From Bacteroidaceae bacterium (lineage in GTDB: Bacteria > Bacteroidota > Bacteroidia > Bacteroidales > Bacteroidaceae), in the NCBI GenBank assembly GCA_963654235.1, contig CAVJZR010000001.1, positions 5,049 to 69,048 of the forward strand: 64,000 bases of DNA, written 5' to 3'. Shown here one piece after another: positions 22,654-45,466 of this stretch. The notes under the pieces were generated by a model. The model was not told the DNA's origin and did not search any database. It saw only the letters and a program-made list of their open reading frames with translations. How positions within the stretch are numbered: the first letter of the stretch is position 1; every line of letters begins with the position of its first letter. Made by a program: the position numbers and the translations under genes.

Positions 22654-23490
22654 TTAATCGTTGGGATGGCGCATGCGCTGAGCCAGTTGAAGAAGGCTGG
22701 GAACAAGGATGCACACAGAGAAGAGGATGCCAAGCCACATCGTGCGGTGGCTGCCATGGAAGAGATCGATGAGTTTGCCATCGGCCATCTGAGGCATAAG
22801 AGCAAACATCAGATAAGCCACGCTGTTGTTGACCCAGTGAACAATGATGCCGGGGACGATGCTTCCTGTACGATAATACATCCAACCAAGGATCAGACCG
22901 ATGAGGAACGCATGGACGCCTTGAGCGAAGTTGAGGTGGATAACGCCGAAGATCAGGGCAGAGATGGCTATCGCCACCCAATGACGACGAGCGCCCGTAA
23001 GGTGTAACAGCACACGCAGGACACCACCACGGAAGACCATCTCTTCAGCTATCGGGGCTAGGACGCCAATGGCAATGTATCCCCACGACTCTTTCATGAT
23101 GCTCTGATAGAGGTTTTGCATATTGGGATCAACGTGCATCTGCATACGTTCGTAGAGCCATTCTAGCGGTAAGATGGTGCCTAGAGCGAGCAACGCTGCC
23201 CAACACAGCACGCCCCAAGGACGCGAGCGGAGGTAGGTGCGGGTGAGCGGAGACCAATGGAGACGGGCAAAGAGGAGAATGGTGAGCAAACTCGAGATCA
23301 CGGTGGTGCCCGCCAAGAGCGCACCTAGTTTGCCTTCTTGTAACTGTAAAAGGATCTGTTGGTAGGTGGTATGCTCCACAAAGGAGTAGACGAAGCTGGC
23401 TGCGAGTTCCACCACAAACTGGATCAGCGCAAAGGTGATGACGAAAAGGATGACATCGAGGATGCCCGTCTTGAGTGTATATTGCTTCAT
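22654..23490 (-). CDS. CPBP-family (CAAX) intramembrane metalloprotease
   Basis: 278 aa polytopic protein with EEMVFRG, FGVIHL and HWVNN motifs. Confidence 0.8.
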   Translation of the reverse strand: MKQYTLKTGILDVILFVITFALIQFVVELAASFVYSFVEHTTYQQILLQLQEGKLGALLAGTTVISSLLTILLFARLHWSPLTRTYLRSRPWGVLCWAALLALGTILPLEWLYERMQMHVDPNMQNLYQSIMKESWGYIAIGVLAPIAEEMVFRGGVLRVLLHLTGARRHWVAIAISALIFGVIHLNFAQGVHAFLIGLILGWMYYRTGSIVPGIIVHWVNNSVAYLMFALMPQMADGKLIDLFHGSHRTMWLGILFSVCILVPSLLQLAQRMRHPND

Positions 23491-24652: not shown

Positions 24653-24726
24653 GGACTTGTAGCTCAGTTGGTTAGAGCAACAGACTCATAATCTGGAGGT
24701 CCTAGGTTCAAGCCCTAGCTGGTCCA
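24653..24726 (+). tRNA. tRNA with CAT anticodon (elongator Met or lysidine-modified Ile2; not resolved)
   Basis: Hand-folded cloverleaf: GGACTTG/TA/GCTC-AGTTGGTTA-GAGC/A/ACAGA-CTCATAA-TCTGG/AGGTC/CTAGG-TTCAAGC-CCTAG/CTGGTCC-A. One T-T mismatch in the acceptor stem. TActTTTG box about 30 nt upstream. Confidence 0.88.
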
Positions 24727-24732
24727 CATACT

Positions 24733-24922: not shown

Positions 24923-24986
24923 AATGTAAATGATAAAGCAGAAGGAGCTACATTGCTGTAACTCCTTCTGCTTTATCATTTACATT
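24923..24986 (-). terminator. 25-bp perfect inverted repeat downstream of the RiPP-operon OMP gene
   Basis: AATGTAAATGATAAAGCAGAAGGAG (24923-24947) and its exact reverse complement (24962-24986), with a 14-nt loop. About 35 nt past the stop at 25022. Confidence 0.7.
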
Positions 24987-25021: not shown

Positions 25022-27280
25022 TCAGAGAGAGATGCCCTTCTCTTGGCTCTTTATCTTGTTCTCATCAATATTGATCTTGCTTTTCTTATTCTTACGCATG
25101 GTCCATCGAACGGTCATGCGAAGTTCTCGGTTCGAATTGACAACATGACTGATACGGTCATATCCATCGACATGGTAGTGCTGATCGTATTTGGTCTTAC
25201 CAAATGTCTGGCTGCTACCGAGAATGAAGATAAGGTCTGGAGTGATGTTATAAGAAACATAGACGGCGCTAGAATATGGACCTCTATAACTTGTTTCTGC
25301 ATAAGGAGTATAGGACTTGTTCTGATAAGAAATATCGCTCTCGACATGGAAGCCCTTATAATTCCACATAACGTAAGCGGACAAGCTAAAATACTTCTTA
25401 CACTTCTCACCTAGATATTTGATTAACCCATATTTGGCTGAAGCCGAAAAGTCCAACGTCTTATAGCTATACGTAGCCGTTTGCGAAACCGAAAAGCCAT
25501 GATAGCTGCCATAGTTCTTATAAGTGGAGTAATAAATGCCTTTGTCGTAATAAGAATAAGGGAGTATGAGGTCCTTTGAATAAACATAATCTACGGACGT
25601 GGAGGAACTGAATCCTGAAACATATATGTATTCCTTAAGACTCAATGAATGGGTTCGCTCTGGAACAAGCAGAGGATTACCACTTGAGAATATCAACGAA
25701 TCGGTAGAAGTGTTGTATGGATTCAACTTATCTATAGCTGGTTGTGAATTGGTCAGTTTATATTCTAACGACGTTTCGGATATTCCTTTTTCATAAGAGA
25801 TGTCCGCTGATATATTAGGACGCAAATACGAGTTCTTTACACCTGCAGAATTGAGGTGCATATAGTCGGCTCCTGCAGACAAAACAGAAGAGAAATCGCC
25901 CAACGACATAGACAAGGCTGTATAGAAGTATTCGTTTAAACTTTTAAACTTAAACTGGTTGGCCAAGCTCTCCTGCTTAATTCTATTAGTGGAGTAGTCG
26001 GTAGCGTTTCCGAAATCTAAAGAAAAGACTTTGCTTATCTCCCACGACAAATCCAGTTCTTGACTTAAGAAATGCCTTTTGGTTGAAAACATATCATCGT
26101 CTTGTATATCAGCTTTGCCTAACTGTTGAACCTCACTATTTGTTTGACTGTTATTATTAATCGTGTATCTAGCAGTGTTCTCTAAGGATAAATTCTTACC
26201 AAACTGATGCTTGTAATACAAAGATGATGTATAGACATGAGACCTAACAACCGACTTCTCATAGGAAGAATACTTCAACGAGTCAGAATTGGCATTGACG
26301 TGCCAACCTTTACTATCTGCGTCAGATGTGCTATGATTGTCATCGCCTTGGAAGCTAACAATGAAATAATCTTTCTTTGTAGGTCTCCACTTGATCATGG
26401 TTTGGTAGCTAAAATCATGGTTTCTGTCGTTTATGGCAGAATTATAATCTCTACTATAATCCGTTGATCGAATGTTTTTACTGGAGGAAGCATGATTATA
26501 ACGTTTCCACGTAGGACCTAGAGTAACATAAAGCGACAACTTGCTATTGCCAACTTCAAAGGTCGGGCCCGTCCATCCTGATTTCCAAGGAAATGTGTTG
26601 CCATACCCTAAGCGTAGATATGTGTAGAGAGATTTGGTCTGTTTCAGATGAATATTAACAATACGCTGGGCACCAGACCTTATGTATTTGGAACTAACGA
26701 CATCTATCACCTCTACCGATTCAATCCTAGACGGAGATATGGGAGAAAGTCCGGTATTCATCTTTGCTCCATCTACTAGGAACAAGATGCTTTTGCCATC
26801 ATCAGAACTTAGGCCTTCATTTATATAATCACTCCGCAACTTCGGAATTTCTTGCAACGCAATGTATGGGTTATTGCTTTTTACAGCATCTTCTGAAAGA
26901 AAGTAGATATGACCATAAGGAGTCTTTATTGGACGCCTATGTCCAACAACCGTAACCGAATCCATGCTTATGGTTGTTTCTTTCATTATGCCGTAATAGT
27001 TATTTTTTTCATGCAAGTCTATACTATCAGTAAGGGTCTCATAACCCAAGCAATGTACAAATAGGGCCACCTTTGCGTCTGGTAAATCATCAATAGCATA
27101 AGAACCCTCACCATCACTACCTCCTATTGCGATCACAGAATCATTAAGCGAAACGATGATTGTTGCCTTTTCAATAGGAGTAAAGTTGTTAGTCAGAATC
27201 TTACCTGACAACTTTATCGATTGGGAAAAAGACAATGCACAATATAAAACACAAAAGACTAGAAATATTGTTCGCTTCAT
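25022..27280 (-). CDS. Outer-membrane beta-barrel protein, TonB-dependent-receptor-like (CarboxypepD_reg-like N-domain + plug-like region + barrel)
   Basis: 752 aa. Signal peptide; N-terminal KLSGKILTNNFTPIEKATIIV...GSYAIDDL fold-type motif; plug-like ALQEIPKL...LVDGAKM...IESVEVI; long alternating beta-strand-like C-terminal region. The ATG is 1 nt after the maturase stop. Confidence 0.7.
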   Translation of the reverse strand: MKRTIFLVFCVLYCALSFSQSIKLSGKILTNNFTPIEKATIIVSLNDSVIAIGGSDGEGSYAIDDLPDAKVALFVHCLGYETLTDSIDLHEKNNYYGIMKETTISMDSVTVVGHRRPIKTPYGHIYFLSEDAVKSNNPYIALQEIPKLRSDYINEGLSSDDGKSILFLVDGAKMNTGLSPISPSRIESVEVIDVVSSKYIRSGAQRIVNIHLKQTKSLYTYLRLGYGNTFPWKSGWTGPTFEVGNSKLSLYVTLGPTWKRYNHASSSKNIRSTDYSRDYNSAINDRNHDFSYQTMIKWRPTKKDYFIVSFQGDDNHSTSDADSKGWHVNANSDSLKYSSYEKSVVRSHVYTSSLYYKHQFGKNLSLENTARYTINNNSQTNSEVQQLGKADIQDDDMFSTKRHFLSQELDLSWEISKVFSLDFGNATDYSTNRIKQESLANQFKFKSLNEYFYTALSMSLGDFSSVLSAGADYMHLNSAGVKNSYLRPNISADISYEKGISETSLEYKLTNSQPAIDKLNPYNTSTDSLIFSSGNPLLVPERTHSLSLKEYIYVSGFSSSTSVDYVYSKDLILPYSYYDKGIYYSTYKNYGSYHGFSVSQTATYSYKTLDFSASAKYGLIKYLGEKCKKYFSLSAYVMWNYKGFHVESDISYQNKSYTPYAETSYRGPYSSAVYVSYNITPDLIFILGSSQTFGKTKYDQHYHVDGYDRISHVVNSNRELRMTVRWTMRKNKKSKINIDENKIKSQEKGISL

Positions 27281-27281
27281 A

Positions 27282-28550
27282 TTATTCTCTTTTAAGTTTA
27301 TTTGTAACCAAATACCTGAAGTATTCCTGTTTGCTTATATTAAGCGACTTCAGATAACATTCTGTATGACCAACTTTAATTTGATTGGGGCAAGGCCCAT
27401 AACAAGAAGGAAACCTTCTGCATGATAAACATTCATCTGGACTTTTCGTGGAGTAGTCATACGCCAGTTTTGATTCATTCCATATTATTTGCCCCGTCTG
27501 AGTATCCAATTTACCATAAGCATTTGTTTGATTAAAATCTGATATAGTTGTACATTTGAAGACTTGCCCGTCATAATTTATAACTGCTTCATTATAGCGT
27601 TCACCAAAACACAATTTTCCTTGAGTATAGTAATCAACACTAAAACCTTCTCCATTGAGTTTTTCAATTGTACTATTGACTATTTCATTATTAATATTTT
27701 CGTGATTTACTTGCCAAACTCTTTTTACAATAATAACAGTTCTACGCCTGTCTAATTCTTTGATTCTAGCCAATATCTCGTCAAAACTTTCTAACGTATT
27801 CTCATCAAAGTTGATTCTAAGGAACAACATAGATGAAGGAATCTTTTCTTGAATCAACTTCATATTCTGAAAAGTCAGAGTAAATAAATCTTTACTCCTA
27901 TCCTTTGTATGCTTTACCTTATTATGTTGTTCTTTATTACCATCAATAGTTATTTGAAATTGACATGATAAATCCGAAAGAAAATCTATGTTCTTTGCAT
28001 CTAGCAAGGTTCCGTTAGTGGTAAAATCAAGATATAACGAAATGCCTCTCTTGATGCAAACATTCTTCGCTCTTTCTATAATATCCTTTATTGCAGGATA
28101 GTTGTAGAAAGGTTCTCCTCCAAAGAAAGATAATTTTAATGTAGAGAAAGGCTCGTTATTACACTTCCAAATGATATGCTTTATAATACCATCAGACACT
28201 TCTTTGCTTATTTTGCTACCTTTATACCTTCGCTCGTAACAATACCAACAAGATAAGTTGCAGTCAAGCGTTGGATTGACAATTAAATGGTAAAGGGATT
28301 TATCATATAGTTCGGTGCTTCTTCTAAATTGTACTATATCTTTTTCATTATAATCATCCTCTACTATGAAATCCATTCTTTTAAGAGAATCCCATAAATC
28401 CTGATATTGCTCTACAGAGCTATTAGGTATGTTTTCATAAAATTCATGACCTTCATGGTCTAAGATAACAATTGCGCCATTAAAATAATTAATGTGTAAG
28501 AAAACGCCATCTTGTATCTCGCAACTATCTTGGTAATATATTTTTCTCAT
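27282..28550 (-). CDS. Radical SAM / SPASM-domain peptide maturase
   Basis: 422 aa. CX3CX2C at DCNLSCWYC. SPASM pattern C-x13-G-x4-C (CFGERYNEAVINYDGQVFKC) and CX2CX5CX3C (CLSCRRFPSCYGPC) plus a trailing Cys. Confidence 0.9.
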   Translation of the reverse strand: MRKIYYQDSCEIQDGVFLHINYFNGAIVILDHEGHEFYENIPNSSVEQYQDLWDSLKRMDFIVEDDYNEKDIVQFRRSTELYDKSLYHLIVNPTLDCNLSCWYCYERRYKGSKISKEVSDGIIKHIIWKCNNEPFSTLKLSFFGGEPFYNYPAIKDIIERAKNVCIKRGISLYLDFTTNGTLLDAKNIDFLSDLSCQFQITIDGNKEQHNKVKHTKDRSKDLFTLTFQNMKLIQEKIPSSMLFLRINFDENTLESFDEILARIKELDRRRTVIIVKRVWQVNHENINNEIVNSTIEKLNGEGFSVDYYTQGKLCFGERYNEAVINYDGQVFKCTTISDFNQTNAYGKLDTQTGQIIWNESKLAYDYSTKSPDECLSCRRFPSCYGPCPNQIKVGHTECYLKSLNISKQEYFRYLVTNKLKRE

Positions 28551-28579
28551 ATAATTGGAAGCGTGTGTTCTTTTATTTC

Positions 28580-28622
28580 AAAAAGTATTTCTCCTTTTTG
28601 TATGGTAGAAGAAATACTTTTT
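28580..28622 (-). terminator. Intra-operon hairpin between precursor and maturase genes (candidate partial terminator/attenuator)
   Basis: 13-bp stem AAAAAGTATTTCT (28580-28592) / AGAAATACTTTTT (28610-28622) with a 17-nt loop, in the 81-nt gap between the two genes. Confidence 0.5.
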
Positions 28623-28631
28623 GAATTGCTA

Positions 28632-28910
28632 TTAATAACACGTTTTATTGTCGTTGACAGCAGTACACATAGGCGTATTATTGATGCTGGAACATTCCTT
28701 GGCACTATTAATAGCTGAACAAGTATTGTTGTGATTAATGACTGAGCATATATCCTTGTTATTTATAACATCACAATGCTTTGCGTCATTACTTGCCGTA
28801 CACTTATTACCATTATTAATTTGATCATAAAGAGATTCTCCACCTCTTATAGCCAACATATGCTTCTTGGTCAATTCTTCTAATTCTTTTGCGTTGAATA
28901 TTTGCTTCAT
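28632..28910 (-). CDS. RiPP precursor peptide: double-glycine leader + Cys-x3-Asn nonapeptide-repeat core
   Basis: 92 aa. The leader MKQIFNAKELEELTKKHMLAIRGG has hydrophobic residues at -4, -7, -12 and -15. Core Cys at residues 37, 46, 55, 64, 73, 82 and 91 (exact period 9). Asn at Cys+4 in six repeats. Sits immediately upstream of the rSAM/SPASM gene. Confidence 0.8.
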   Translation of the reverse strand: MKQIFNAKELEELTKKHMLAIRGGESLYDQINNGNKCTASNDAKHCDVINNKDICSVINHNNTCSAINSAKECSSINNTPMCTAVNDNKTCY

Positions 28911-28979: not shown

Positions 28980-28987
28980 CAAAGTTA
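28980..28987 (-). promoter_or_regulatory. -7 promoter box (TAACTTTG on the minus strand) for the precursor operon
   Basis: Matches the Bacteroidota TAnnTTTG consensus about 70 nt upstream of the precursor ATG. Confidence 0.5.
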
Positions 28988-29125: not shown

Positions 29126-30691
29126 TTAGAAGTTTTCTATGAATTCTCTTGCCGAACCATCGCTTCTTCCTAATCCTAGTTTAGGTTTTATTAGATACAG
29201 CTTCTGTCTGACAGAACTTTCTTCAATGTGGTAAATCTTCGCTATTCTATGTATAGGTAATCTTAGCCTTATAAGCATAAGAAAACGAATATCTTTTTGT
29301 GTAAGGGAAGGGAAACTCTCTTTAAGTCTTTCTACAAAATGGTTGTCTGTATTATCTAGATAAGCTATAAGTTCGTCCCATTCTTCTGTGTTCAACACAA
29401 TCCGCTTCTCTTCTCCTTCATTCATTCTCTTGCTCTCCGCTTTTAACTTATTCACAACATCTACATTCTTCAAAAGAATATTACGAACGTTTACTATCTG
29501 CGATTCTTTGATTTCTACTTCCTTTTTGCATTTTACCATCTTCTCTTCTGTAGTTCTCTTTCTCACATAAAATAGTCTTAGGACAAGCAACATAACACCC
29601 CATGAAAGTATTAATAGTATACTTATAAAGATTATGACCCCTGAGTGCTCTCTTTGTGTTACGGAAGTCTTTTCTAAAAGGATTTGGCTATCTTTGGTTG
29701 CACGTTCCTTTGTGTATTTCCTATTTATATATAATTCTGTGGAATCAGCATAATCATCTACTTGTTTATAGTTCTTTTCAGACAATGCGATGAATTGTCG
29801 TAATGAGAATAAGATATCACCGTAATCAGCATAATCTTCCTGTTTAATATGAGAGAGCAAAGACTTTGCAGCCCCTAACGAGTCTGCTTGACAAAAAGCA
29901 TTTTCCAAAGACAATAAAGAGATAATATCCTTTGATGGGTTGTATGAGAAGGATTCTTTTGCCATCTTCACGGCAGAACCTTCATTACCACACATTCGAT
30001 AGAACACTGATAGGTGATGAAAAACATCAGAGATGGCAGAAGAATCATTGATTTCTTTAGCATATTCGAGAATGTTTCTCGCCAACAAGATGCTTTTCTC
30101 TCTTTCGCTAGGCTTGGAAGCGTAACATTGAGCTAAGTTCAAGACCATATATACCTTATTAGCATCACGATTGCCTTTGATATGATCATATACATCGCAA
30201 GCTAACTGCGCATAGTTTATTGCTTTATCAGCATCATAACCTCTGAGAACAACTGACGTTTGAACGTAACACTTGCTTTGCGTCAAATAATCGTGGTTTC
30301 GTTTGGCGGCAGTAGCAGAACGACTAAAAAGATTCAGCGCTTTTGAGGTATTACCATTCAAAGCATAGTGCTTGCCCATATAGTACATGCTTTTGGCATA
30401 AAGAGAATCCTCTGACCTATCTTTATAATAAGCATAAGCGACGAGAAGAAGCGAATCGTTGTTGCTTTCTATCCCTAACTTATCTTGAGCCATTGTATAT
30501 ACAAGCGCATACATTGCCATATTGCTATCCGAAAGTCGGGTTTGATCAACTTGGTTTAGCAATGCAATTGCACTATCAGGCTTTTGTTCTACCAAAGATA
30601 ACGCGGCCGAGATGCGTGTGTTGTTTTGAGCACAAGACATTATAACAGCAAGCCCAAGTGCTAAAGCCAACATCTTGTTTAAACTTTTCAT
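29126..30691 (-). CDS. Membrane-anchored regulator: lipoprotein signal, TPR-like domain, one TM helix, C-terminal LuxR/GerE-like HTH
   Basis: 521 aa. LAVIMSC lipobox-like signal, TM VIIFISILLILSWGVMLLVLRLF, C-terminal LTQKDIRFLMLIRLRLPIHRIAKIYHIEESSVRQKLYLIKPKLG. Minus-strand TAATTTTG box at 30720-30727. Confidence 0.7.
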   Translation of the reverse strand: MKSLNKMLALALGLAVIMSCAQNNTRISAALSLVEQKPDSAIALLNQVDQTRLSDSNMAMYALVYTMAQDKLGIESNNDSLLLVAYAYYKDRSEDSLYAKSMYYMGKHYALNGNTSKALNLFSRSATAAKRNHDYLTQSKCYVQTSVVLRGYDADKAINYAQLACDVYDHIKGNRDANKVYMVLNLAQCYASKPSEREKSILLARNILEYAKEINDSSAISDVFHHLSVFYRMCGNEGSAVKMAKESFSYNPSKDIISLLSLENAFCQADSLGAAKSLLSHIKQEDYADYGDILFSLRQFIALSEKNYKQVDDYADSTELYINRKYTKERATKDSQILLEKTSVTQREHSGVIIFISILLILSWGVMLLVLRLFYVRKRTTEEKMVKCKKEVEIKESQIVNVRNILLKNVDVVNKLKAESKRMNEGEEKRIVLNTEEWDELIAYLDNTDNHFVERLKESFPSLTQKDIRFLMLIRLRLPIHRIAKIYHIEESSVRQKLYLIKPKLGLGRSDGSAREFIENF

Positions 30692-31202: not shown

Positions 31203-33749
31203 CTAGATTGAACAACTGATTTTACAAAGTATTGCACGCGGGCGAAGCGTATTGATGGTAAACGTCCGAAGATAGTCACTTATTACTGTTCGTTCATAAT
31301 GGATTGTTCCAAAAACATTGGTGCATGAAAGCCCCAGTTCATAGCTTTTGGTACGATAGCTTACGTTTACATCACAGAAATAATTGTTACTGATCGTTGC
31401 GTCATTGCTATGGTAATATTCATTTCTCCATTCTATTTGCCATTTGCCTGGCATGAAGATCACGTCAACGGAATGGCAGAAATAGTTCAAGGCAGAACGG
31501 CTGATAGCTTGATCGGGAGATTTCTGAACAATATTGTTCCATCTGCTTTTCCCTTCTACGGATAGCCATGTGCTCGGATGCCACAATAGTTCCAACCCCA
31601 TATAGCCTTTGCGTTGTTTCATCAGCGTTTTATTTCCGCTTATCATAAGGTAGTACTGATACCAACTGATGTTACCTGTTAGAGCTAACGATAGCTTTCC
31701 CCAACCTATCGACTTAGCAATTCGACCGTTAAGGATGTAAGAGCTGGTATTACCTTCGTTCGTCGTCGCTCTTCTAACGTAGATTCCATCCATATACGAA
31801 CTGCTATAAAGTATATTGTTGCTAGAACGGTTATAAGAGAAAGACGTACTAGCAGAAAAGCCATGAACAGGATTGGTATATTGCCAATTGTTGCTCACAA
31901 GATGAACGTTTGAACTTACAAGTCGTCCAAGCCCCTCCACCAATGTAATATAATCAGTATAGATGGGTGACGACGAAATGGCATCCAACGAACCGGGACT
32001 CCATATATAAAGGTAATCAAGATGCGTTTTGAGATATGGACTTAAGCTATACTCCAACGACACTGTTGGTTCAAAAGCTATGTGTTGTTTGTTGGCTTCA
32101 TTGAAACATCTGCTATTCCAACTTAGTTTTGCTATGGCGCTTAAGCTAAGCAATCTTGACTTATAGGAAAATGATGGACTGGCATAAAGTTTCAGCAAGC
32201 TATATCTGTCTTTGTTACTAGTATAATGGTTTTCTATGCCTTGATGATAGTTGTCATATTCTTCGCCAATGGTCCATGCGATGTAAGATCTAGCAACCTT
32301 ATGTCTAAAATACGCAGACGTTTTCACAGATAGGTGATGAATTCCAAGATATTCCCCACTTCCATTCATCAATAGGACGTAGCCCGGAAGGAAGCTGTAC
32401 CTTAACTTGGTGTTAAAGGAAACACTATGCCCACCATAAAGATTTCTGATAAGCCGAAGGGTGTTAGCAATATATCGTTTTCTTGGTTCTACGTCTTGTT
32501 TTACATCTGAGCCATTCAGCAAGGTTGCTCCTCGTGAGTAGTTAAAGTCCATGTATCCTTTAAGACTATTGCTCAGATATGTTTTATCCGAGTTCAACTT
32601 ATAAAGCAGTTCGCCTTTCCATTCATTGCGTTTGCTGAATGCATTTCTGCTTTCAGAGATCATCGCTCCGTCCGATGTGGCATCTAGGAAAGTAGTCTGT
32701 CTGAACATATTCTGTTGAGTCTTATCTAAGAGTCCATCTAGTTGAAATCGAAGGTCAGCATTATCGGTTGGTTTGAAAAGCCAGTTGGTTGCAAAAACAC
32801 GCGAATCATTGAATGCGTACCTTTTCATCTCTAGCGATGGCGCTTGAATGATGATAGAGCTAAGACGTTCTCCGTCATCGGTCATCAAGTCGTTAGCTGA
32901 CAAATCGGTTATTTCATGTCCGATGTCCTTACCCGTGTTATTGGTCTTATACATGCTTATGCTTTGGCGTTTATGAGCAAAAAGCATGGCCATAAGTCTT
33001 GCATCACGAAGCCATTCGCCTTTGCCTTGCAACGTATGTCCACCTGCGACATCAAGCACCCCTTGCCAAACATTCTTAGCATCGTCTTTCAACACAATAT
33101 TCAATGCGGCTTGATCACTAAAACTAACATCACGCAGCGCGCGTACTGGTTGATGATTATTAAGCACTTGTACCTTACTCACTTTGGTAGCATCGATATT
33201 TTCGCTTGCTAAAGAGTATTTGCCGCCTAGCAAGTCCATGCCTTCAATATAGAATTTGTTTATCGGTTGATCATTGACAACAATCTGCCCGCTCGGTCTC
33301 ACTTCGACACCTGGTATTTTGGAAAGCACATCAGCAATACTACGATCTTGCTTCTGCATATACGCTGAGACAAGATAAGTAACCGTGTCACCCTCTATCT
33401 TTGCCCTGTCTGGCATGACCTTTACTTCCTTTAACTCGAATGCTTTTTCATGAAGAATGTATGTAGCGCCTTCTTTGAATTTATCCAAAGGCAATGTAAT
33501 ATCCGCATAGCCCATCTTCCGAAGCCGAATAGATTGTGTCTGCTTCTTTTCTGGACAAACCACCATGAAGCTTCCGTCTTGTTTGCTTTGCGCATAAGCT
33601 ACAGGACAATTGTTGTAAAGCAAGGCTATCGTTACACCCGAAAGAGCATTGCCTATCGTATCTACAATGACGCCACGATATCTTTGCGCAGAGCTAAGGG
33701 TGACTCCGAGCACATTTAAGAAAAATACGATGGCAAATAATCTTCTCAT
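31203..33749 (-). CDS. Outer-membrane beta-barrel protein, TonB-dependent-receptor-like (second copy of the CarboxypepD_reg/plug/barrel architecture)
   Basis: Start set at MRRLFAIVFFLNVLGV (signal peptide); the ORF extends to 33782. YRGVIVDTIGNALSGVTIAL N-domain and a plug-like region (SIADVLSKIPGVEV...FYIEGMDLLGGKY). Confidence 0.7.
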   Translation of the reverse strand: MRRLFAIVFFLNVLGVTLSSAQRYRGVIVDTIGNALSGVTIALLYNNCPVAYAQSKQDGSFMVVCPEKKQTQSIRLRKMGYADITLPLDKFKEGATYILHEKAFELKEVKVMPDRAKIEGDTVTYLVSAYMQKQDRSIADVLSKIPGVEVRPSGQIVVNDQPINKFYIEGMDLLGGKYSLASENIDATKVSKVQVLNNHQPVRALRDVSFSDQAALNIVLKDDAKNVWQGVLDVAGGHTLQGKGEWLRDARLMAMLFAHKRQSISMYKTNNTGKDIGHEITDLSANDLMTDDGERLSSIIIQAPSLEMKRYAFNDSRVFATNWLFKPTDNADLRFQLDGLLDKTQQNMFRQTTFLDATSDGAMISESRNAFSKRNEWKGELLYKLNSDKTYLSNSLKGYMDFNYSRGATLLNGSDVKQDVEPRKRYIANTLRLIRNLYGGHSVSFNTKLRYSFLPGYVLLMNGSGEYLGIHHLSVKTSAYFRHKVARSYIAWTIGEEYDNYHQGIENHYTSNKDRYSLLKLYASPSFSYKSRLLSLSAIAKLSWNSRCFNEANKQHIAFEPTVSLEYSLSPYLKTHLDYLYIWSPGSLDAISSSPIYTDYITLVEGLGRLVSSNVHLVSNNWQYTNPVHGFSASTSFSYNRSSNNILYSSSYMDGIYVRRATTNEGNTSSYILNGRIAKSIGWGKLSLALTGNISWYQYYLMISGNKTLMKQRKGYMGLELLWHPSTWLSVEGKSRWNNIVQKSPDQAISRSALNYFCHSVDVIFMPGKWQIEWRNEYYHSNDATISNNYFCDVNVSYRTKSYELGLSCTNVFGTIHYERTVISDYLRTFTINTLRPRAILCKISCSI

Positions 33750-33760
33750 GCAGTAAGCGT

Positions 33761-34564
33761 TTATGGTTTCTCTATAAGGCACGCTTCCTTATTTCGAGGC
33801 GATTTGCGGTTTCCTTGAGCATCATACGTAGTGCCACGAAATCCCCAAACTCGTTGCATAGCTGCATCCTCGTCTTTAGCCTCAAGGGTAAGAAGGTTGG
33901 CAAGCTGTTTAGCATCACAATGCTTGTATTCTTTCTTTATCGGTTCGAACGTGCTACGCTTGTTGTTACCTTCTATCCCAATAGCGTCAAAGACAAAGTC
34001 CCCTTCTATATCCTTCGCATAAAGAATAAGTCCTGGCAAACCACATAGCTTCCAAGGCCCGTCATCAATAGCTATATCTGGCGTATAGTAAACTATCCAT
34101 GTACGTCCTCGATACGTCGTTTCTGCTTTATAAGCAGCATATCCCAATATAATGGTATCGCTATCTATCAAACGCCATTCAAACTGTGGCATTGGTTCTT
34201 CGTACTTAAAATCATCCCATACCTTGCTGATGTAAGTAAGTGTGCCAGTAGAAGGATAGTTTTTAAACACCTCGATATTAGTGTTCTGCCGTAGTAAATC
34301 CATCTTTTTAAGAACGCTTATAACGTCATAACCGCTATAACCTAAGCGTAACAGACTATCCTTAACTACCTCTCCACGATAATTATCTAGACAATAAAAA
34401 CAAGAAACATCGTCTGAAATATCAAGAACGTTAGTACAAACCATTGGGCTCGCATCGTTTTTGTATTTATGGAAAGTAGTGCTGTACGTCACGCTTATCC
34501 CCCAACATACATTGTAGGAGAAAAGAATCATAAAGAGGAATAATATATTAATTATCTTTGGCAT
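33761..34564 (-). CDS. GLPGLI family protein
   Basis: 267 aa with a signal peptide. Contains the family-defining motif (WKLCGLPGLILYA). Confidence 0.8.
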   Translation of the reverse strand: MPKIINILFLFMILFSYNVCWGISVTYSTTFHKYKNDASPMVCTNVLDISDDVSCFYCLDNYRGEVVKDSLLRLGYSGYDVISVLKKMDLLRQNTNIEVFKNYPSTGTLTYISKVWDDFKYEEPMPQFEWRLIDSDTIILGYAAYKAETTYRGRTWIVYYTPDIAIDDGPWKLCGLPGLILYAKDIEGDFVFDAIGIEGNNKRSTFEPIKKEYKHCDAKQLANLLTLEAKDEDAAMQRVWGFRGTTYDAQGNRKSPRNKEACLIEKP

Positions 34565-34635
34565 ATGCTAATTGAATAAAAGCATTCCACGTTCGTCACG
34601 TTTTTACAAGAGACAAACGTGGAATGCATTCTTAT

Positions 34636-34851
34636 TTAGAACATTCCATATTCTGGATGTTCAGAATACCAAGCCTGATAGATACTAATAATCTGTTCGT
34701 TTGTAAGTACACAATCAAACACTATGTAATCTCCATTTTCAAACACTACCACAGTTCTTTGCGGCTCATCTCTATTGGTAGCATTAGCCGTTGAAAAAGG
34801 ATTGCCCAAAAGTGCTAATGCTAAACCAAGTGTTAATATAAATCTTTTCAT
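34636..34851 (-). CDS. Small secreted hypothetical protein (72 aa from the MKRFILTLGLALALLG start)
   Basis: Clear signal peptide at the internal Met; the longer listed ORF (to 34929) overlaps the upstream gene. Confidence 0.4.
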   Translation of the reverse strand: MKRFILTLGLALALLGNPFSTANATNRDEPQRTVVVFENGDYIVFDCVLTNEQIISIYQAWYSEHPEYGMF

Positions 34852-34909
34852 TGTTTTAACTTTTTTAAAAATGTAATTGTTATAGCGTTGTGCACTTCGC
34901 TTGTTTTGT

Positions 34910-35284
34910 TCATAAGTCCAAACAACCATAGTAGTTGATGTTTTCTTTGTTTACTTGTACATAATACCTACCTTTAAACAAGGTTGGCAAAACAACATAT
35001 TCTTGAGAAACATCAACGTCTAAAGAGCAGACGACTTCTCCCTCGGTAGTTACAATCTCTAGATGACTTGGTTTCAACGTTTCATTAAGCCAAATCCGTT
35101 CACCATCATAATACACATATGCATCATTTGCGTTGGGCATCCGTTGAAGTGGCTTGCTAGACTTTGTATCATCGACGTAATAAGTACGCATTACTATTAC
35201 GTAAATGTCACCATTCTGTCTAGTTTGGGCTTGTAATAGGAAGATTGGTGCAAATAGTATAACCAACAATACTTTCCTTATCAT
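34910..35284 (-). CDS. Small secreted protein; the C-terminal part resembles a T9SS-CTD/DUF3244-type beta-sandwich (tentative)
   Basis: 124 aa. Signal peptide MIRKVLLVILFAPIFLLQAQ. C-terminal LPTLFKGRYYVQVNKENINYYGCLDL. Minus-strand TATTTTTG box about 35 nt upstream. Confidence 0.45.
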   Translation of the reverse strand: MIRKVLLVILFAPIFLLQAQTRQNGDIYVIVMRTYYVDDTKSSKPLQRMPNANDAYVYYDGERIWLNETLKPSHLEIVTTEGEVVCSLDVDVSQEYVVLPTLFKGRYYVQVNKENINYYGCLDL

Positions 35285-35455
35285 CCTTTTATCTTTATCA
35301 TTATATGTTATTATATTGCAAAAATAAAGATAAAAGATTAAGCGGTAAACTTTAATGAGTACACTTAGTACACTTTACGCAAAAGAAGAGTTCTACTTCT
35401 TGTCAGCAAATCCGTGTATCTTAGACAACTAACTCTAGAAATACACATTGTACAC

Positions 35456-37177
35456 CTACAATCCTGTTTTATAAATATTAGAAGTAAATGTTTTAGAGCC
35501 CATATCCCCAAACAATGTTTTGTTTAGTTTTGCACGAAGATTCGTCATTCTCTGCTTAGAAATATCAAGTAATACGGAAATTTCAGATGGTATAAAGTGT
35601 AATCTTGTGAGGATACACACTTTTCTTTCCTGTTCTGTTAATGAAAAGTTTTTGTCGTCAATAAAGTCGTAAAATTTAAACAATGACACCTTTACAATAT
35701 CGTAAAGTTCTTCCCATTCCATATTCGTTGGCCGTTTTATAGTTGAAGCATACTTATGAAATTGTAATACCATCGTATGCTCCATAAGATTTCTTTCAGC
35801 CTCTTTATCAGAAGCGAGAAACTTTCCTGTGTACGATGATAATAGGGTTGAAAGCCTGTTGATTTGATCTTCCTTGTCCTTCTTACTTTTTTCAACATCC
35901 ACTTCCAATTTCCGTAGTTCTTCCAATGCCGCATAATATTGCTGAAGTATCTCTATGTATTTTAAATTATAGATTCTCAGTTCTTGTTTTCGCTTCTTCT
36001 TCCTACTATTGATCAAGAAGCTAGTAGCTACAACTATTACAATCAATAATAATATTAGTAAGATGCAGTAAAAATGATATTCTTTCGCTTCAGCAGCTTT
36101 TTTATCAGCTACTTTTTGCTTTTCTGAGTAATTATAAAGGGATTGCGCTTTGCTAATCTCATCGGCAGAATGAATCACATTGGCAGAATCATTAATAATA
36201 GTAAAGAGCTTTGCGTATTTTACTACAGAATCGATCTCATTCAATTGGGAATAGTCTTCCATGAGTCCTCTATACGCATTTTCTTGACTGTTTAGGTCTG
36301 TAGAACAAGAGGCTAGCTTTCTATAATAGTATAAAGAAGAATCTAGATTGAGCGTTTCTTTATAATAGCGTCCCATATAATAATAGAAGAACTCATGTCC
36401 TTGTGTTAGCTCTCCATTACTAAAAAGCCCAGAATGAAGTATGTACTCAGTAATCTGCTTCTTTGCTAAATTCAGATGTTTGTTCTCTATATTATTATCA
36501 ATTTGGATACCAAGCGATGCGGCAGCATAGTCCTTTCTGCCTATTTTCTTATATTCATTATATGTATCCTTCGCCACCTTCAAGGCTTTGGATTTATTTC
36601 CCCACAAAAGATATGCGCCTACACATCGCTCCTTTAACTGAATAGCCATTAATGTATCACTACACATGAGAGCATATTTTCGTGCCATATTCCAATAATA
36701 CATTTCTTCCTGAGGCATTCTTTGTTCATGAAACAAAGATGCTATTTGCCCATATATTCTAGGAAGTTCTTTTGAAGGACTTACTGTATCTGCAACCTCC
36801 ACAGCTTTCAAATAAAACTTAATTGCAGAAGGACAATCACCTTTATCACGATAGACGCATCCCATCATATAGGATGCATTCATTGTTTCTATTTCGCTAC
36901 CATTCGAATCATAATAACGTAGTACTTCATCCATGAAAGATATCGTATCCATCGGGATATATGCTTTATTCATTGCTTCTGCGTATATCAGTAGGTATTT
37001 CATTCGGTTTCGACGACTGAAGTTCTTTAGACTACTCCATTTGTTCTTTAGGATGACGTATGCTGAATCAGGTTGCTTTTCTAATAAGGAAGAAGCTTCT
37101 ACTATCACCTTAGGTGTTGTAGGATTCTCGCAAGAAACCATAAGAATAAAAAACAAAAAATATAGTATGCGTTTCAT
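35456..37177 (-). CDS. Membrane-anchored regulator, paralog of 29126..30691 (lipoprotein signal, TPR-like, TM, LuxR/GerE-like HTH)
   Basis: 573 aa. FILMVSC signal, TM FYCILLILLLIVIVVATSFLI, coiled-coil region, C-terminal LTEQERKVCILTRLHFIPSEISVLLDISKQRMTNLRAKLNKTLFG. Confidence 0.7.
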   Translation of the reverse strand: MKRILYFLFFILMVSCENPTTPKVIVEASSLLEKQPDSAYVILKNKWSSLKNFSRRNRMKYLLIYAEAMNKAYIPMDTISFMDEVLRYYDSNGSEIETMNASYMMGCVYRDKGDCPSAIKFYLKAVEVADTVSPSKELPRIYGQIASLFHEQRMPQEEMYYWNMARKYALMCSDTLMAIQLKERCVGAYLLWGNKSKALKVAKDTYNEYKKIGRKDYAAASLGIQIDNNIENKHLNLAKKQITEYILHSGLFSNGELTQGHEFFYYYMGRYYKETLNLDSSLYYYRKLASCSTDLNSQENAYRGLMEDYSQLNEIDSVVKYAKLFTIINDSANVIHSADEISKAQSLYNYSEKQKVADKKAAEAKEYHFYCILLILLLIVIVVATSFLINSRKKKRKQELRIYNLKYIEILQQYYAALEELRKLEVDVEKSKKDKEDQINRLSTLLSSYTGKFLASDKEAERNLMEHTMVLQFHKYASTIKRPTNMEWEELYDIVKVSLFKFYDFIDDKNFSLTEQERKVCILTRLHFIPSEISVLLDISKQRMTNLRAKLNKTLFGDMGSKTFTSNIYKTGL

Positions 37178-45216: not shown

Positions 45217-45466
45217 GACTTTGCTTTTGGGTGTAAAATTAATTATTTTATTCGATGCCACCGAATAAAAAACGATAATTTTATTCAGTGGCATCGAATA
45301 AAAAAATCTTAATAATACATTTTCTATACTTTCCTAGGGGCGCTTTCGGCTTAATAATACACTTTTCTAGGGCTGTATACCGTTGGTTGTTAGAGCATAA
45401 CGTTTATTTCTAGGCGGGGAAGGCCTCCTTGATATTATCTTTAATAATGGAAAGAAAACACAAATA

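What the first reader, a model, noticed from the sequence alone, without database searches (positions are those of the whole stretch)
25022..27280. No C39 peptidase/ABC exporter for a double-glycine leader; an outer-membrane barrel is translationally coupled instead
**Established knowledge.** Double-glycine leaders are normally removed by the C39 peptidase domain of a dedicated ABC exporter (PCAT).

**Seen in the sequence.** I recognise no C39, ABC or other protease gene anywhere in the 24.8-37.3 kb island or the rest of the window. The gene fused to the maturase by a 1-nt gap is a TonB-dependent-receptor-like barrel: CarboxypepD_reg-like N-domain, plug-like segment, and no obvious TonB box.

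**Inference.** One of three things holds. Processing and export are encoded elsewhere. The OMP is the export, uptake or immunity component. Or the peptide acts in the periplasm or at the cell surface. Each would be an unusual layout for a RiPP.
Basis: partly seen in the sequence, partly recalled or inferred. Interest (0 to 1): 0.65.

Follow-up and report, generated by a model that had tools for sequence, protein, structure and literature searches.

The report
TonB-type barrel in peptide gene cluster
The outer-membrane gene joined to the peptide-modifying enzyme is a TonB-dependent-transporter-type protein that regularly accompanies this family of gut-bacterial modified peptides, and the "missing" leader-cutting exporter normally sits right behind it in related genomes but has been lost from this copy.

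Summary
The gene at 25022-27280 (-) is real, intact and starts 1 nt after the radical-SAM maturase stop. Its model is a TonB-dependent transporter (TBDT): N-terminal beta-sandwich, plug, large barrel. No C39/ABC sequence exists in any frame of the window, but four or five unrelated peptidase genes do.

In 40 species-level relatives the rule is regulator, GG-leader precursor(s), rSAM, this OMP, a full C39-ABC exporter (PCAT), then a reduced HlyD-like adaptor. The OMP directly follows the rSAM in 35 of 39 loci. A PCAT follows in 30 of 38. So the OMP accompanies the PCAT rather than replacing it.

The window, like its closest relatives and about one locus in five, is a PCAT-less "precursor-rSAM-OMP" triad that ends at a strong terminator. 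The triad is under purifying selection, so a PCAT encoded elsewhere most likely processes the peptide.

The OMP co-diversifies with the rSAM far more than the PCAT does. Functional orphan copies also exist. I therefore read it as the peptide-specific outer-membrane gate. I favour TonB-driven uptake and sensing (about 0.45) over Oar-like export (about 0.3). The layout is already noted bioinformatically; moderate interest.

The parts
25022..27280 (-). TonB-dependent-transporter-family outer-membrane protein, 752 aa (PF14905 OMP_b-brl_3). Third and last gene of the precursor-rSAM-OMP operon.
   Evidence: ORF. Pfam. AF2 model pLDDT 85. Foldseek top 50 hits are all TBDTs. SusC-homologue profile hit.
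27218..27280 (-). Signal peptide (MKRTIFLVFCVLYCALSFSQS). Cleavage would expose Gln, which fits the Bacteroidetes Q-rule.
   Evidence: Hydropathy segment at aa 4-22. Sequence. The Q-rule papers appear only as titles and abstracts in the listing (PMC5837995, PMC10653852).
26984..27217 (-). N-terminal extension: CarboxypepD_reg-like beta-sandwich (aa 22-99), periplasmic.
   Evidence: Pfam CarbopepD_reg_2 at aa 24-111. Seven strands at pLDDT about 90. Aligns with the SusC N-terminal domain.
26933..26965 (-). TonB-box-like motif MDSVTVVGHRR (aa 106-116) in the disordered linker.
   Evidence: Column counts over 54 homologues: L48 D35 E38 V40 x V45 x A32/G19 D36 R40. Aligns with DEVVVTG of SusC homologue 5t3r_D.
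26645..26914 (-). Plug-like domain (aa 123-212).
   Evidence: Pfam Plug at 18.3 bits, below the cut-off. Secondary structure. Profile alignment to the plugs of SusC homologues and of the colicin I receptor.
25091..26626 (-). Beta-barrel (aa 219-730; about 22-24 DSSP strands).
25025..25090 (-). C-terminal tail after the last strand (aa 731-752). Low model confidence, but it ends in a family-conserved E-x-G-I-S-L.
   Evidence: E747, G749 and I750 are nearly invariant. pLDDT below 50 at aa 732-745.
24923..24986 (-). Strong terminator hairpin (30-bp stem) 36 nt after the OMP stop. This is the end of the operon.
   Evidence: -53.5 kcal/mol, z = -11.7. Terminator scan.
27282..28550 (-). Radical SAM/SPASM peptide maturase, 422 aa, with CX3CX2C. 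Its stop lies 1 nt before the OMP start.
   Evidence: Pfam Radical_SAM, Fer4_12, SPASM. NCBIfam best hits are Cys-rich-peptide maturases, all below their cut-offs. 1367 homologues.
28577..28625 (-). 19-bp-stem hairpin between the precursor and rSAM genes. Likely a partial terminator that sets the precursor-to-enzyme ratio (inference).
   Evidence: -22.4 kcal/mol, z = -6.5.
28632..28910 (-). Precursor peptide, 92 aa. Leader ends ...KKHMLAIRGG. The core has six C-x3-N motifs at a 9-residue period plus a final Cys.
   Evidence: Sequence. The same leader and repeat plan is seen in about 40 relatives.
28980..28987 (-). Bacteroidetes-type -7 promoter motif TAACTTTG upstream of the precursor. No such motif lies before the rSAM or OMP genes.
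   Evidence: Five motif hits on this strand in the island. Four are intergenic and lie just upstream of gene starts.
29126..30691 (-). One-component membrane regulator. It has a lipoprotein-type signal with an invariant Cys20, a periplasmic TPR domain, a TM helix at aa 352-370 and a cytoplasmic LuxR-type HTH.
   Evidence: AF2 model pLDDT 84.6. TPR fold matches include the Rap and NprR peptide receptors. The C-terminal profile hits only NarL/VraR/ChrA-type HTH domains, weakly, at E 0.015-1.7. Conserved next to the cluster in relatives.
24653..24727 (+). tRNA-Met marking the downstream edge of the low-GC island. ribF follows. There is no room for a PCAT.
31203..37177 (-). Second module of the island: a TPR/TM regulator (35456-37177), two small secreted proteins (34910-35284 and 34636-34929), a GLPGLI protein (33761-34564) and a second, distant TBDT-like OMP (31203-33782) with a FELKEVKVMPDR motif.
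   Evidence: The same GLPGLI-OMP2 pair is followed by a PCAT in Segatella bryantii L042.

Best explanation
**What it is (shown).** The gene encodes a TonB-dependent-transporter-family outer-membrane protein. In order it has a signal peptide, a CarboxypepD_reg-like N-terminal domain, a TonB box, a plug and a barrel. It is the last gene of a three-gene operon, GG-leader precursor then radical-SAM/SPASM maturase then OMP. This triad is a recurrent module of a large family of Bacteroidales (mostly Prevotellaceae) modified-peptide clusters.

**The canonical cluster and this copy (shown).** In the canonical cluster the triad is followed directly by a full C39-ABC exporter (PCAT) and a reduced, hairpin-less HlyD-like adaptor. 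It is preceded by a membrane regulator with a periplasmic TPR domain. In this window the PCAT and adaptor are absent, and the operon stops at a strong terminator.

**How the leader is removed (inferred, about 0.7).** The double-glycine leader is cut, and the peptide is moved across the inner membrane, by a PCAT encoded elsewhere in the genome. PCATs in this family are conserved, recognise the shared leader and can serve several triads.

**What the OMP does (inferred).** It is the component specific for the mature cross-linked peptide.

**Direction I commit to (about 0.45).** TonB-energised uptake of the mature peptide into the periplasm. There the TPR/LuxR-type regulator senses it and drives the operon. 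This is the logic of Bacteroidetes SusC-plus-periplasmic-sensor loci and of siderophore or methanobactin receptors encoded next to biosynthesis. How the peptide first leaves the producer is then not encoded here.
For: **Anatomy**
- establish the TBDT fold, the conserved TonB box and the homology to the SusC N-terminal domain and plug.

**One operon**
- There is a 1-nt gap between rSAM and OMP.
- The only Bacteroidetes -7 motifs lie before the precursor and the regulator genes; none lies before rSAM or OMP.
- There is a hairpin after the precursor and a terminator after the OMP.

**Linkage across 40 species-level loci**
- The OMP directly follows the rSAM in 35 of 39 loci. The median gap is 2 nt and 17 are overlaps.
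- A PCAT is present in 30 of 38. Its domains are confirmed by Pfam.

**Reduced HlyD adaptor**
- It lies right after the PCAT in 21 of 26 close loci.
- It hits TIGR01843 and TIGR01000.

**PCAT acting in trans is plausible**
- PCAT-less triads recur (window, L001, L002, L095, L011, L016, L022, L035, L045) with housekeeping genes downstream. They keep intact GG leaders.
- rSAM dN/dS against L001 is 0.075. For the OMP against a 97% relative, pN is 0.014 and pS 0.21.
- One PCAT is flanked by two or three triads in L087, L088 and L171.

**Specificity lies in the OMP**
- Mean pairwise identity is rSAM 0.41, OMP 0.25, PCAT 0.59.
- Mantel r is 0.85 for rSAM-OMP against 0.48 for rSAM-PCAT.

**Uptake rather than export**
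- Every solved relative is an importer.
- The TonB box is conserved.
- A PF14905 protein of Flavobacterium johnsoniae is treated as a nutrient TBDT (PMC8115612).
- Orphan copies 77-85% identical to a cluster-linked OMP exist without rSAM or PCAT and are under purifying selection, with dN/dS 0.12. This resembles orphan siderophore receptors.
- The conserved regulator has a periplasmic, Rap/NprR-like TPR domain.
- Bacteroidetocins, which also carry GG leaders, are released without any cluster-encoded OMP (PMC6671954).
Against: - No experiment bears on direction.
- An uptake role leaves the peptide's exit across the outer membrane unexplained. In the canonical operon, by contrast, every step of an export route is encoded: PCAT, an adaptor remnant and an OMP.
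- The OMP sits between the maturase and the exporter genes.
- The orphan copies could serve clusters located elsewhere in those genomes. The metagenome set is also highly redundant: 49 of 80 loci fall in one 80%-identity cluster.
- TPR similarity to Rap and NprR is generic for TPR superhelices.
- The HTH assignment rests on weak hits, E 0.015-1.7. Pfam saw none.
- I could not search the rest of the source genome for a PCAT, so 'in trans' is not shown.
- The Plug domain is below the Pfam threshold, and I could not count the barrel strands exactly.
Confidence: 0.45

Rival explanations
1. **Export gate (Oar-like).** The PCAT cuts the leader and releases the peptide into the periplasm. The TBDT-family OMP, energised by TonB, then lets the cross-linked peptide out across the outer membrane. 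It takes the place of TolC in a two-step route. The reduced HlyD protein is a leftover accessory of the PCAT.
For: - Canonical operon order is precursor, rSAM, OMP, PCAT, mini-HlyD, with tiny intergenic gaps.
- No TolC or full-length membrane-fusion protein was seen among the genes I examined in these loci, apart from L066.
- An adaptor without the alpha-hairpin would fit a partner that has no TolC-like periplasmic tunnel (inference).
- There is a precedent with the same architecture (CarboxypepD_reg extension, TonB box, plug, barrel). [quoted passage not shown]
- How Bacteroidales GG-peptides cross the outer membrane is an acknowledged gap (PMC6671954; PMC10352776).
Against: - Oar is the only known exporting TBDT.
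- An exit duct does not need to be product-specific, yet the OMP is the fastest-diverging part and the one that co-diversifies with the rSAM.
- Functional orphan copies without cargo genes exist.
- In many loci the adaptor is reduced to a 50-88 aa stub, so no envelope-spanning complex is implied.
Confidence: 0.3
2. **Decaying or silent remnant.** Having lost its PCAT and adaptor, the window's cluster no longer yields a processed, exported peptide. The OMP persists only because it has some other, peptide-unrelated transport role typical of its large family.
For: - No PCAT or adaptor is in the window.
- Relatives show clear decay: an ISL3 insertion in the OMP (L003), a PCAT truncated after its C39 domain (L004-L006, L009), frameshifted rSAM or PCAT genes (L044, L048, L050, L053), and an OMP without a callable rSAM (L092-L094).
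- OMP homologues occur in many non-RiPP contexts.
Against: - All three genes of the triad are intact, along with the regulator, the promoter motif and the terminator.
- Selection on rSAM and OMP is strongly purifying.
- The GG leader is conserved between PCAT-less and PCAT-bearing relatives.
- The same PCAT-less layout is kept in at least two different genomic neighbourhoods.
Confidence: 0.12
3. **Immunity or decoy.** The OMP protects the producer. For example, it could be a receptor variant that binds but does not admit the peptide, or one that pumps it out of the periplasm.
For: - RiPP and bacteriocin operons usually carry an immunity function, and none is recognisable here.
- The OMP is specific to each precursor/rSAM type.
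Against: - I know of no TBDT that acts as an immunity protein.
- A conserved TonB box argues for active transport.
- It is not known that the peptide is toxic.
Confidence: 0.05

Closest known systems
Bacteroidales RiPP gene clusters with rSAM, PCAT and an 'OMP' but no recognised membrane-fusion protein (Front Microbiol 2023, PMC10352776)
   Same: Same order of bacteria. Both have GG-leader precursors, a radical-SAM maturase, a PCAT and an outer-membrane protein gene in the cluster, plus TPR-domain genes nearby. That paper itself asks how export works without an MFP.
   Different: That paper did not characterise the OMP. Here it is shown to be TBDT-like with a conserved TonB box. A reduced HlyD-like gene is found after the PCAT in relatives. 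The window itself lacks both PCAT and adaptor. I could not tell whether any of that paper's nine clusters is the same family as this one.
Oar, the TonB-dependent transporter needed for PopC secretion in Myxococcus xanthus (PMC6434023)
   Same: Same domain order: CarboxypepD_reg-type N-terminal extension, TonB box, plug, barrel. It offers a possible outward direction for a TBDT.
   Different: Oar's cargo is a 50-kDa protease with no leader and no PCAT, and Oar is not encoded next to it in an operon. The barrel here belongs to PF14905, not PF00593. No evidence for export exists here.
Cognate TBDT receptors encoded with biosynthesis genes: methanobactin MbnT and siderophore receptors such as FpvA (my own knowledge, not checked here)
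   Same: A product-specific TBDT sits next to the genes that make the product. The receptor co-diversifies with biosynthesis. Orphan receptors occur in non-producers. An envelope-spanning regulator is coupled to the receptor.
   Different: Those products are metal chelators. Here the core is a 66-residue Cys/Asn-rich repeat peptide that is probably thioether-bridged, with no sign of metal binding. The regulator here is a TPR/LuxR-type one-component protein, not a sigma/anti-sigma pair.
Colicin V / class II microcin export (CvaB PCAT + CvaA MFP + TolC)
   Same: Double-glycine leader and a PCAT in relatives. An HlyD-family gene follows the PCAT.
   Different: The adaptor has lost its lipoyl and coiled-coil hairpin part, or is only a TM stub. 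The outer-membrane partner encoded in the cluster is a plugged TBDT, not TolC. In the window neither PCAT nor adaptor is present.
Ranthipeptide systems with repeated Cys motifs (PapA/PapB C-x3-D, NxxC peptides; my own knowledge)
   Same: rSAM/SPASM enzyme. The best NCBIfam hits are to Cys-rich-peptide maturases, including PapB and CefB. The core has six evenly spaced C-x3-N motifs.
   Different: All NCBIfam scores are far below the family cut-offs, for example 117.6 against 525. The partner residue would be Asn. The chemistry is untested. Known ranthipeptide clusters are mostly from Firmicutes and lack an OMP.

Membership tests
TonB-dependent transporter (TBDT) superfamily | Large (22-strand) beta-barrel closed by an N-terminal plug domain | tested here: met
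   AF2 model, pLDDT 85. The top 50 Foldseek PDB hits are all TBDTs, E 7.7e-19 to 2.7e-15, TM-score per target 0.45-0.62. The strand count from DSSP is about 22-24 and was not resolved exactly.
TonB-dependent transporter (TBDT) superfamily | TonB box just before the plug | tested here: met
   DSVTVVG at aa 107-113. The family motif LDEVxVxADR is conserved in 54 homologues. It aligns with DEVVVTG of SusC homologue 5t3r_D.
TonB-dependent transporter (TBDT) superfamily | Pfam Plug (PF07715) and TonB_dep_Rec (PF00593) above gathering score | tested here: not met
   Plug scores 18.3 bits against 23.9, and PF00593 gives no hit for the window protein. Some homologues do carry PF00593 or PF07715 hits. 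Membership therefore rests on fold and motif.
TonB-dependent transporter (TBDT) superfamily | Transport depends on TonB-ExbBD and proton-motive force | not testable with these tools
   Needs genetics or a transport assay.
Pfam PF14905 OMP_b-brl_3 with CarbopepD_reg_2 N-terminal domain | Scores above the gathering thresholds of both models | tested here: met
   47.1 bits against 27, and 36.7 bits against 32.2.
PCAT-dependent double-glycine peptide system | Leader ending in GG with the upstream hydrophobic pattern | tested here: met
   ...ELTKKHMLAIRGG|ES. The same pattern L-x3-M-x2-(V/I)-x-GG is seen across relatives. This is by inspection; no leader model scored it.
PCAT-dependent double-glycine peptide system | C39-peptidase ABC exporter encoded in the cluster | tested here: not met
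   Absent from all six frames of the 64-kb window. Present in 30 of 38 related loci.
PCAT-dependent double-glycine peptide system | HlyD-family adaptor next to the PCAT (Gram-negative systems) | tested here: not met
   None in the window, best E 1.6. Relatives carry reduced versions.
Radical SAM/SPASM thioether (ranthipeptide-type) maturase system | CX3CX2C radical SAM core plus a SPASM auxiliary-cluster domain | tested here: met
   CX3CX2C is present. Radical_SAM scores 54.6 bits. SPASM scores 21.2 against a 21.5 cut-off, so it is borderline. The C-terminal Cys residues are invariant across 12 homologues.
Radical SAM/SPASM thioether (ranthipeptide-type) maturase system | Reaches the cut-off of a named NCBIfam maturase family | tested here: not met
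   The best hit is TIGR04463 at 117.6 bits against 525. PapB scores 97.3 against 340.
Radical SAM/SPASM thioether (ranthipeptide-type) maturase system | Cys-to-carbon thioether links in the product | not testable with these tools
   Needs co-expression and mass spectrometry or NMR.
Oar-type secretion TBDT | CarboxypepD_reg N-terminal extension plus TonB box plus plug | tested here: met
   Oar architecture from PMC6434023. SusC-like importers share this architecture, so it is not diagnostic.
Oar-type secretion TBDT | Cargo secretion requires the TBDT | not testable with these tools
   Needs a deletion mutant and fractionation.

The most novel reading that the evidence does not exclude
A TonB-dependent transporter, a periplasmic-TPR/LuxR one-component regulator and a thioether-peptide triad together form a peptide-pheromone circuit in a Gram-negative bacterium. 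The modified peptide would be actively imported across the outer membrane and sensed in the periplasm. Orphan receptors would let non-producers listen in. An equally new alternative is that the same barrel is the dedicated TonB-powered exit for PCAT-exported peptides in Bacteroidota.
Probability: 0.25. Interest if true: 0.8.

Novelty: new variant of a known kind. Interest (0 to 1): 0.5.

Why it matters
**Why the system is worth attention**
- Prevotellaceae and other Bacteroidales are major gut, oral and rumen bacteria. Their modified peptides are almost unstudied.
- How any of their double-glycine peptides cross the outer membrane is an open question (PMC6671954, PMC10352776).

**What this locus family offers**
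- It provides a concrete, testable candidate: a plugged, TonB-box-bearing barrel that travels and co-evolves with each precursor/maturase pair.
- It also shows that the "missing" fusion protein exists in a shrunken form, and that the PCAT is a shareable, dispensable-in-cis part.

**Practical lesson for genome mining**
- A PCAT-less "precursor-rSAM-TBDT" triad should not be discarded as incomplete.
- The outer-membrane gene can serve as a marker for this RiPP family.

Tried and rejected
1. **Stand-alone C39 peptidase.** The first related loci (L004-L006, L009) showed a 156-aa C39 protein after the OMP. I rejected a stand-alone peptidase as the family norm. Homology to full PCATs stops at about aa 147, unrelated DNA follows, and all four contigs break within 110 nt. 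Other species have full 720-740-aa PCATs.

2. **My first ABC screen.** The Walker A plus LSGGQ regex was too strict and missed most PCATs in the loci. I replaced it with profile searches.

3. **Integration scars for the island.** I found no direct repeat of the tRNA-Met end at the far border and no integrase in the island.

4. **Sigma-70 promoter scan.** Uninformative: 30 hits against 25 expected. I used the Bacteroidetes TAnnTTTG motif instead.

5. **HTH in the TPR proteins.** Pfam sees none, even at E = 10. Only a family profile against PDB gave consistent but weak LuxR-type hits.

6. **'BT3442 family' lead.** This lead for the second TPR protein went nowhere in the literature.

7. **Source organism and sample.** The exact rSAM is otherwise found only on a 3.7-kb Logan contig. 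The look-up of a Prevotella lacticifex homologue was not on record.

8. **Scan from the OMP side.** The metagenome scan returned a very redundant set. It shows that orphan copies exist but gives no usable frequencies.

9. **PF14905 literature.** One paper only, treating such a protein as a nutrient TBDT.

10. **Ranthipeptide papers.** They did not cover this Bacteroidales family.


Full report
**1. What is at the coordinates**

The minus strand of 24.8-37.3 kb is a low-GC island, GC 0.33-0.42 against about 0.5 in the flanks. Its last three genes are:
- a 92-aa precursor at 28632-28910;
- a 422-aa radical SAM/SPASM protein at 27282-28550;
- a 752-aa protein at 25022-27280.

The junction between the second and third genes reads GAA TAA T ATG, which is a 1-nt gap.

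The precursor has a leader ending ...KKHMLAIRGG. Its core carries six C-x3-N motifs at a 9-residue period.

The 752-aa protein scores above threshold for CarbopepD_reg_2 and OMP_b-brl_3 (PF14905). It scores below threshold for Plug.

**2. The OMP is a TonB-dependent-transporter-type protein, and it has a TonB box**

I built an AlphaFold2 model on 54 homologues (pLDDT 85, pTM 0.72). In order it shows a signal helix, a beta-sandwich (aa 22-99), a disordered linker, a plug-like domain (123-212) and a large barrel (219-730).

The 50 best PDB fold matches are all TonB-dependent transporters, among them PirA, Cir, PhuR, OprC, FepA, BtuB and FecA. E-values run from 7.7e-19 to 2.7e-15.

The linker contains M-D-S-V-T-V-V-G-H-R. 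Across the family this is L-D-E-V-x-V-x-A-D-R, with 35-48 of 54 sequences agreeing at each conserved position.

A family profile aligns the N-terminal domain, this motif and the plug to SusC homologue 5t3r_D at E 3.5e-11. The motif falls on its DEVVVTG.

**3. No PCAT in the window, but other peptidases are present**

- No ORF combines Walker A and the ABC signature.
- tblastn with a C39 domain finds only noise.
- A profile built from 49 PCATs of related clusters finds nothing in any of the six frames, best E 1.5.
- Directly after the OMP stop comes a 30-bp-stem hairpin at -53.5 kcal/mol, z = -11.7. Then come tRNA-Met and ribF. The cluster is therefore complete at this end and is not cut by the window.

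Outside the island Pfam finds four further peptidase genes: Rce1-like/CPBP, M19+C26, M28 and M16. It also finds an ordinary TBDT and an FtsX permease. So 'no other protease' is not correct, although none of these is linked to the cluster.

**4. One operon**

On the coding strand of the island, the Bacteroidetes -7 motif TAnnTTTG occurs five times. Four of these lie in intergenic DNA just upstream of the two regulator genes, the small-protein gene and the precursor gene. None precedes the rSAM or OMP genes.

A 19-bp-stem hairpin lies between precursor and rSAM (z = -6.5). This is as in many peptide operons where the precursor must outnumber the enzymes; that comparison is my inference.

I see no sign of one.

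**5. What relatives look like**

The rSAM has 1367 homologues at E <= 1e-10. The few that carry names are from Prevotella. I fetched 80 loci from species-representative genomes with an rSAM alignment and scored them with profiles.

In the 40 closest loci:
- the OMP directly follows the rSAM in 35 of 39, with a median gap of 2 nt and 17 overlaps;
- a gene starting with a C39 domain follows in 30 of 38;
- where Pfam annotation is available, that gene is Peptidase_C39 + ABC_membrane + ABC_tran and about 730 aa long.

The first related loci seemed to have a 156-aa stand-alone C39 protein. That turned out to be a PCAT cut off after the peptidase domain at a contig break.

Right after the PCAT, 21 of 26 close loci carry a small gene. 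It comes as a 146-167-aa form, a 50-88-aa stub, a 246-aa form, and once as a 433-aa full HlyD protein.

The alignment shows an HlyD N-terminus and TM helix joined to the HlyD C-terminal beta-barrel part. The lipoyl and coiled-coil hairpin is deleted. NCBIfam supports this, with hits to TIGR01843 and TIGR01000.

The canonical cluster is therefore: regulator, precursor(s), rSAM, TBDT-like OMP, PCAT, reduced HlyD. The window has neither of the last two.

**6. The window is a recurrent PCAT-less variant**

- The closest relatives share the order GLPGLI, OMP2, TPR, precursor, rSAM, OMP, and then run into convergent unrelated genes. These are L001 and L002 (rSAM 74%, OMP 63% identical) and L095.
- Six of 34 close loci with an adjacent OMP lack a PCAT, and two more distant ones do too.
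- In the five of these I inspected (L011, L016, L022, L035, L045), the genes after the OMP are housekeeping genes or another OMP.
- These loci keep intact GG-leader precursors.
- Selection is purifying. rSAM dN/dS is 0.075 against L001. For the OMP against a 97% relative, pN is 0.014 and pS 0.21.
- Conversely, one PCAT can sit between two or three precursor-rSAM-OMP triads (L087, L088, L171).

I conclude that the triad is the module and the PCAT is a shareable part. Here the PCAT most likely acts from elsewhere in the genome. I could not check the rest of the genome.

**7. Which part is specific**

In 21 loci with all three genes, mean pairwise identity is 0.41 for rSAM, 0.25 for OMP and 0.59 for PCAT. 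The rSAM and OMP distance matrices correlate with Mantel r = 0.85. For rSAM and PCAT r = 0.48.

The OMP thus diverges fastest and tracks the maturase. That is what one expects of the component that recognises the mature product. The PCAT, by contrast, sees the conserved leader.

**8. Looking from the OMP side**

A metagenome scan with the OMP alignment gave 80 loci, and these are very redundant. It does show that homologues about 30% identical to the window OMP also occur alone, in tandem pairs, or near ECF-sigma/TBDT genes.

Within one Segatella-like group, orphan copies 77-85% identical to a cluster-linked OMP lack rSAM and PCAT nearby. They are still under purifying selection, with dN/dS 0.12.

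**9. The regulator**

The 521-aa gene upstream of the precursor has these features:
- a lipoprotein-type signal whose Cys20 is invariant in 37 homologues;
- a TPR domain;
- one TM helix at aa 352-370;
- a cytoplasmic tail of about 150 aa.

The TPR part resembles peptide-binding TPR proteins, including Rap and NprR. This is a generic fold match.

A profile of the tail hits only LuxR/NarL-type DNA-binding domains, and weakly. Pfam saw none.

Such regulators accompany the cluster in many relatives.

**10. Mechanism**

*Shown:*
- the anatomy of the OMP;
- its operon membership;
- its family-wide linkage to rSAM and PCAT;
- the absence of PCAT and adaptor here.

*Inferred:*
- that a PCAT acts in trans;
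- that the OMP handles the mature peptide;
- the direction of transport.

*For uptake and sensing:*
- every characterised structural relative imports;
- the TonB box is conserved;
- the OMP shows product-level specificity;
- functional orphan copies exist;
- the regulator senses the periplasm, as in SusC-type loci;
- bacteroidetocins get out without a cluster OMP.

*For export:*
- the canonical operon encodes a complete outward route and no other outer-membrane path;
- Oar shows that a TBDT of the same architecture can export.

I put uptake and sensing at about 0.45, export at 0.3, a silent remnant at 0.12 and immunity at 0.05. The rest is unassigned.

**11. Comparison with what is known**

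Bacteroidales clusters with rSAM, PCAT and an 'OMP' but no recognised fusion protein, together with TPR genes, were described in 2023 (PMC10352776). The layout is therefore known at the annotation level.

What I add:
- the TBDT nature of the OMP and its TonB box;
- the shrunken HlyD gene;
- the triad-plus-shared-PCAT organisation;
- the orphan copies.

The window itself is one more member of the family, in the PCAT-less form.

The finding as written, 'an OMP instead of a PCAT', is largely explained. The family behind it remains uncharacterised by experiment and is of moderate interest.

Noticed in passing
L007:9112-9582, L027:15855-16337, L032:8060-8530, L066:6444-7745 and about 30 other loci: A small gene directly after the PCAT is a shrunken HlyD-family adaptor. 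It keeps the N-terminus, the TM helix and the C-terminal beta-barrel part, without the coiled-coil hairpin. In many loci it is only a 50-88-aa TM stub, and in one locus it is full length (433 aa). This may answer the published question of the 'missing MFP'.
   Followed up: yes
L155:7001-9304, L128:2727-5012 (compare L142:3923-6205): Orphan copies of the OMP, 77-85% identical to a cluster-linked copy, sit without rSAM or PCAT next to toxin-antitoxin-like genes, other TBDTs or ECF sigma/anti-sigma genes. They are under purifying selection (dN/dS about 0.12).
   Followed up: partly
window 31203-37177 (-): A second module lies in the same island: a TPR/TM regulator, two small secreted proteins, a GLPGLI-family protein (TIGR01200) and a distant TBDT-like OMP with its own TonB-box-like motif (FELKEVKVMPDR). 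No precursor or rSAM is recognised in it. In Segatella bryantii (L042:16549-20981) a GLPGLI-OMP2 pair is followed by a PCAT.
   Followed up: partly
window 25025-25090 (-); alignment A2: The OMP family ends in a tail after the last barrel strand with a nearly invariant E-x-G-I-S-L. Ordinary TBDTs, as far as I know, end at the last strand with an aromatic residue. It is possibly a periplasmic docking peptide. It is found in orphan members too.
   Followed up: no
window 28577-28625 (-): A 19-bp-stem AT-rich hairpin lies between the precursor and the rSAM gene (z = -6.5). It is likely an attenuator or processing site.
   Followed up: partly
window 22654-23490 (-): An Rce1-like/CPBP intramembrane protease gene overlaps ribF by 4 nt, 1.5 kb beyond the cluster and outside the low-GC island. 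To my knowledge, CPBP proteins are often annotated as bacteriocin self-immunity proteins. There is no evidence of a link here.
   Followed up: no
window 7194-8909 (+): Another signal peptide + TPR + C-terminal AraC-type HTH protein (Pfam HTH_18, 69.6 bits). It has the same sensor-outside, DNA-binding-inside plan as the island's regulators.
   Followed up: no
L003:11302-13053; L004:12370-12840; L091:3576-6115: There are signs of turnover in relatives: an ISL3 transposase cuts the OMP at codon 326, a PCAT is truncated right after its C39 domain, and OMP2 is split into two ORFs in a 97% relative of the window.
   Followed up: partly
L003:9198-9545, L013:9223-9570, L022:8882-9256, L027:9309-9674, L041:3032-3436, L047:9266-9631; window 34910-35284: A small (115-134 aa) signal-peptide-bearing protein of no known family recurs just upstream of the precursor in many loci. 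By eye it looks beta-rich. The window's 124-aa ORF looks similar by eye.
   Followed up: no
window 43963-45294 (-), 58335-59312 (+), 62454-63344 (-): An AAA_14/DUF4143 ATPase, a tyrosine recombinase (XerC/D-like) and a PD-(D/E)XK 'transposase' family gene lie elsewhere in the window. None adjoins the island.
   Followed up: no
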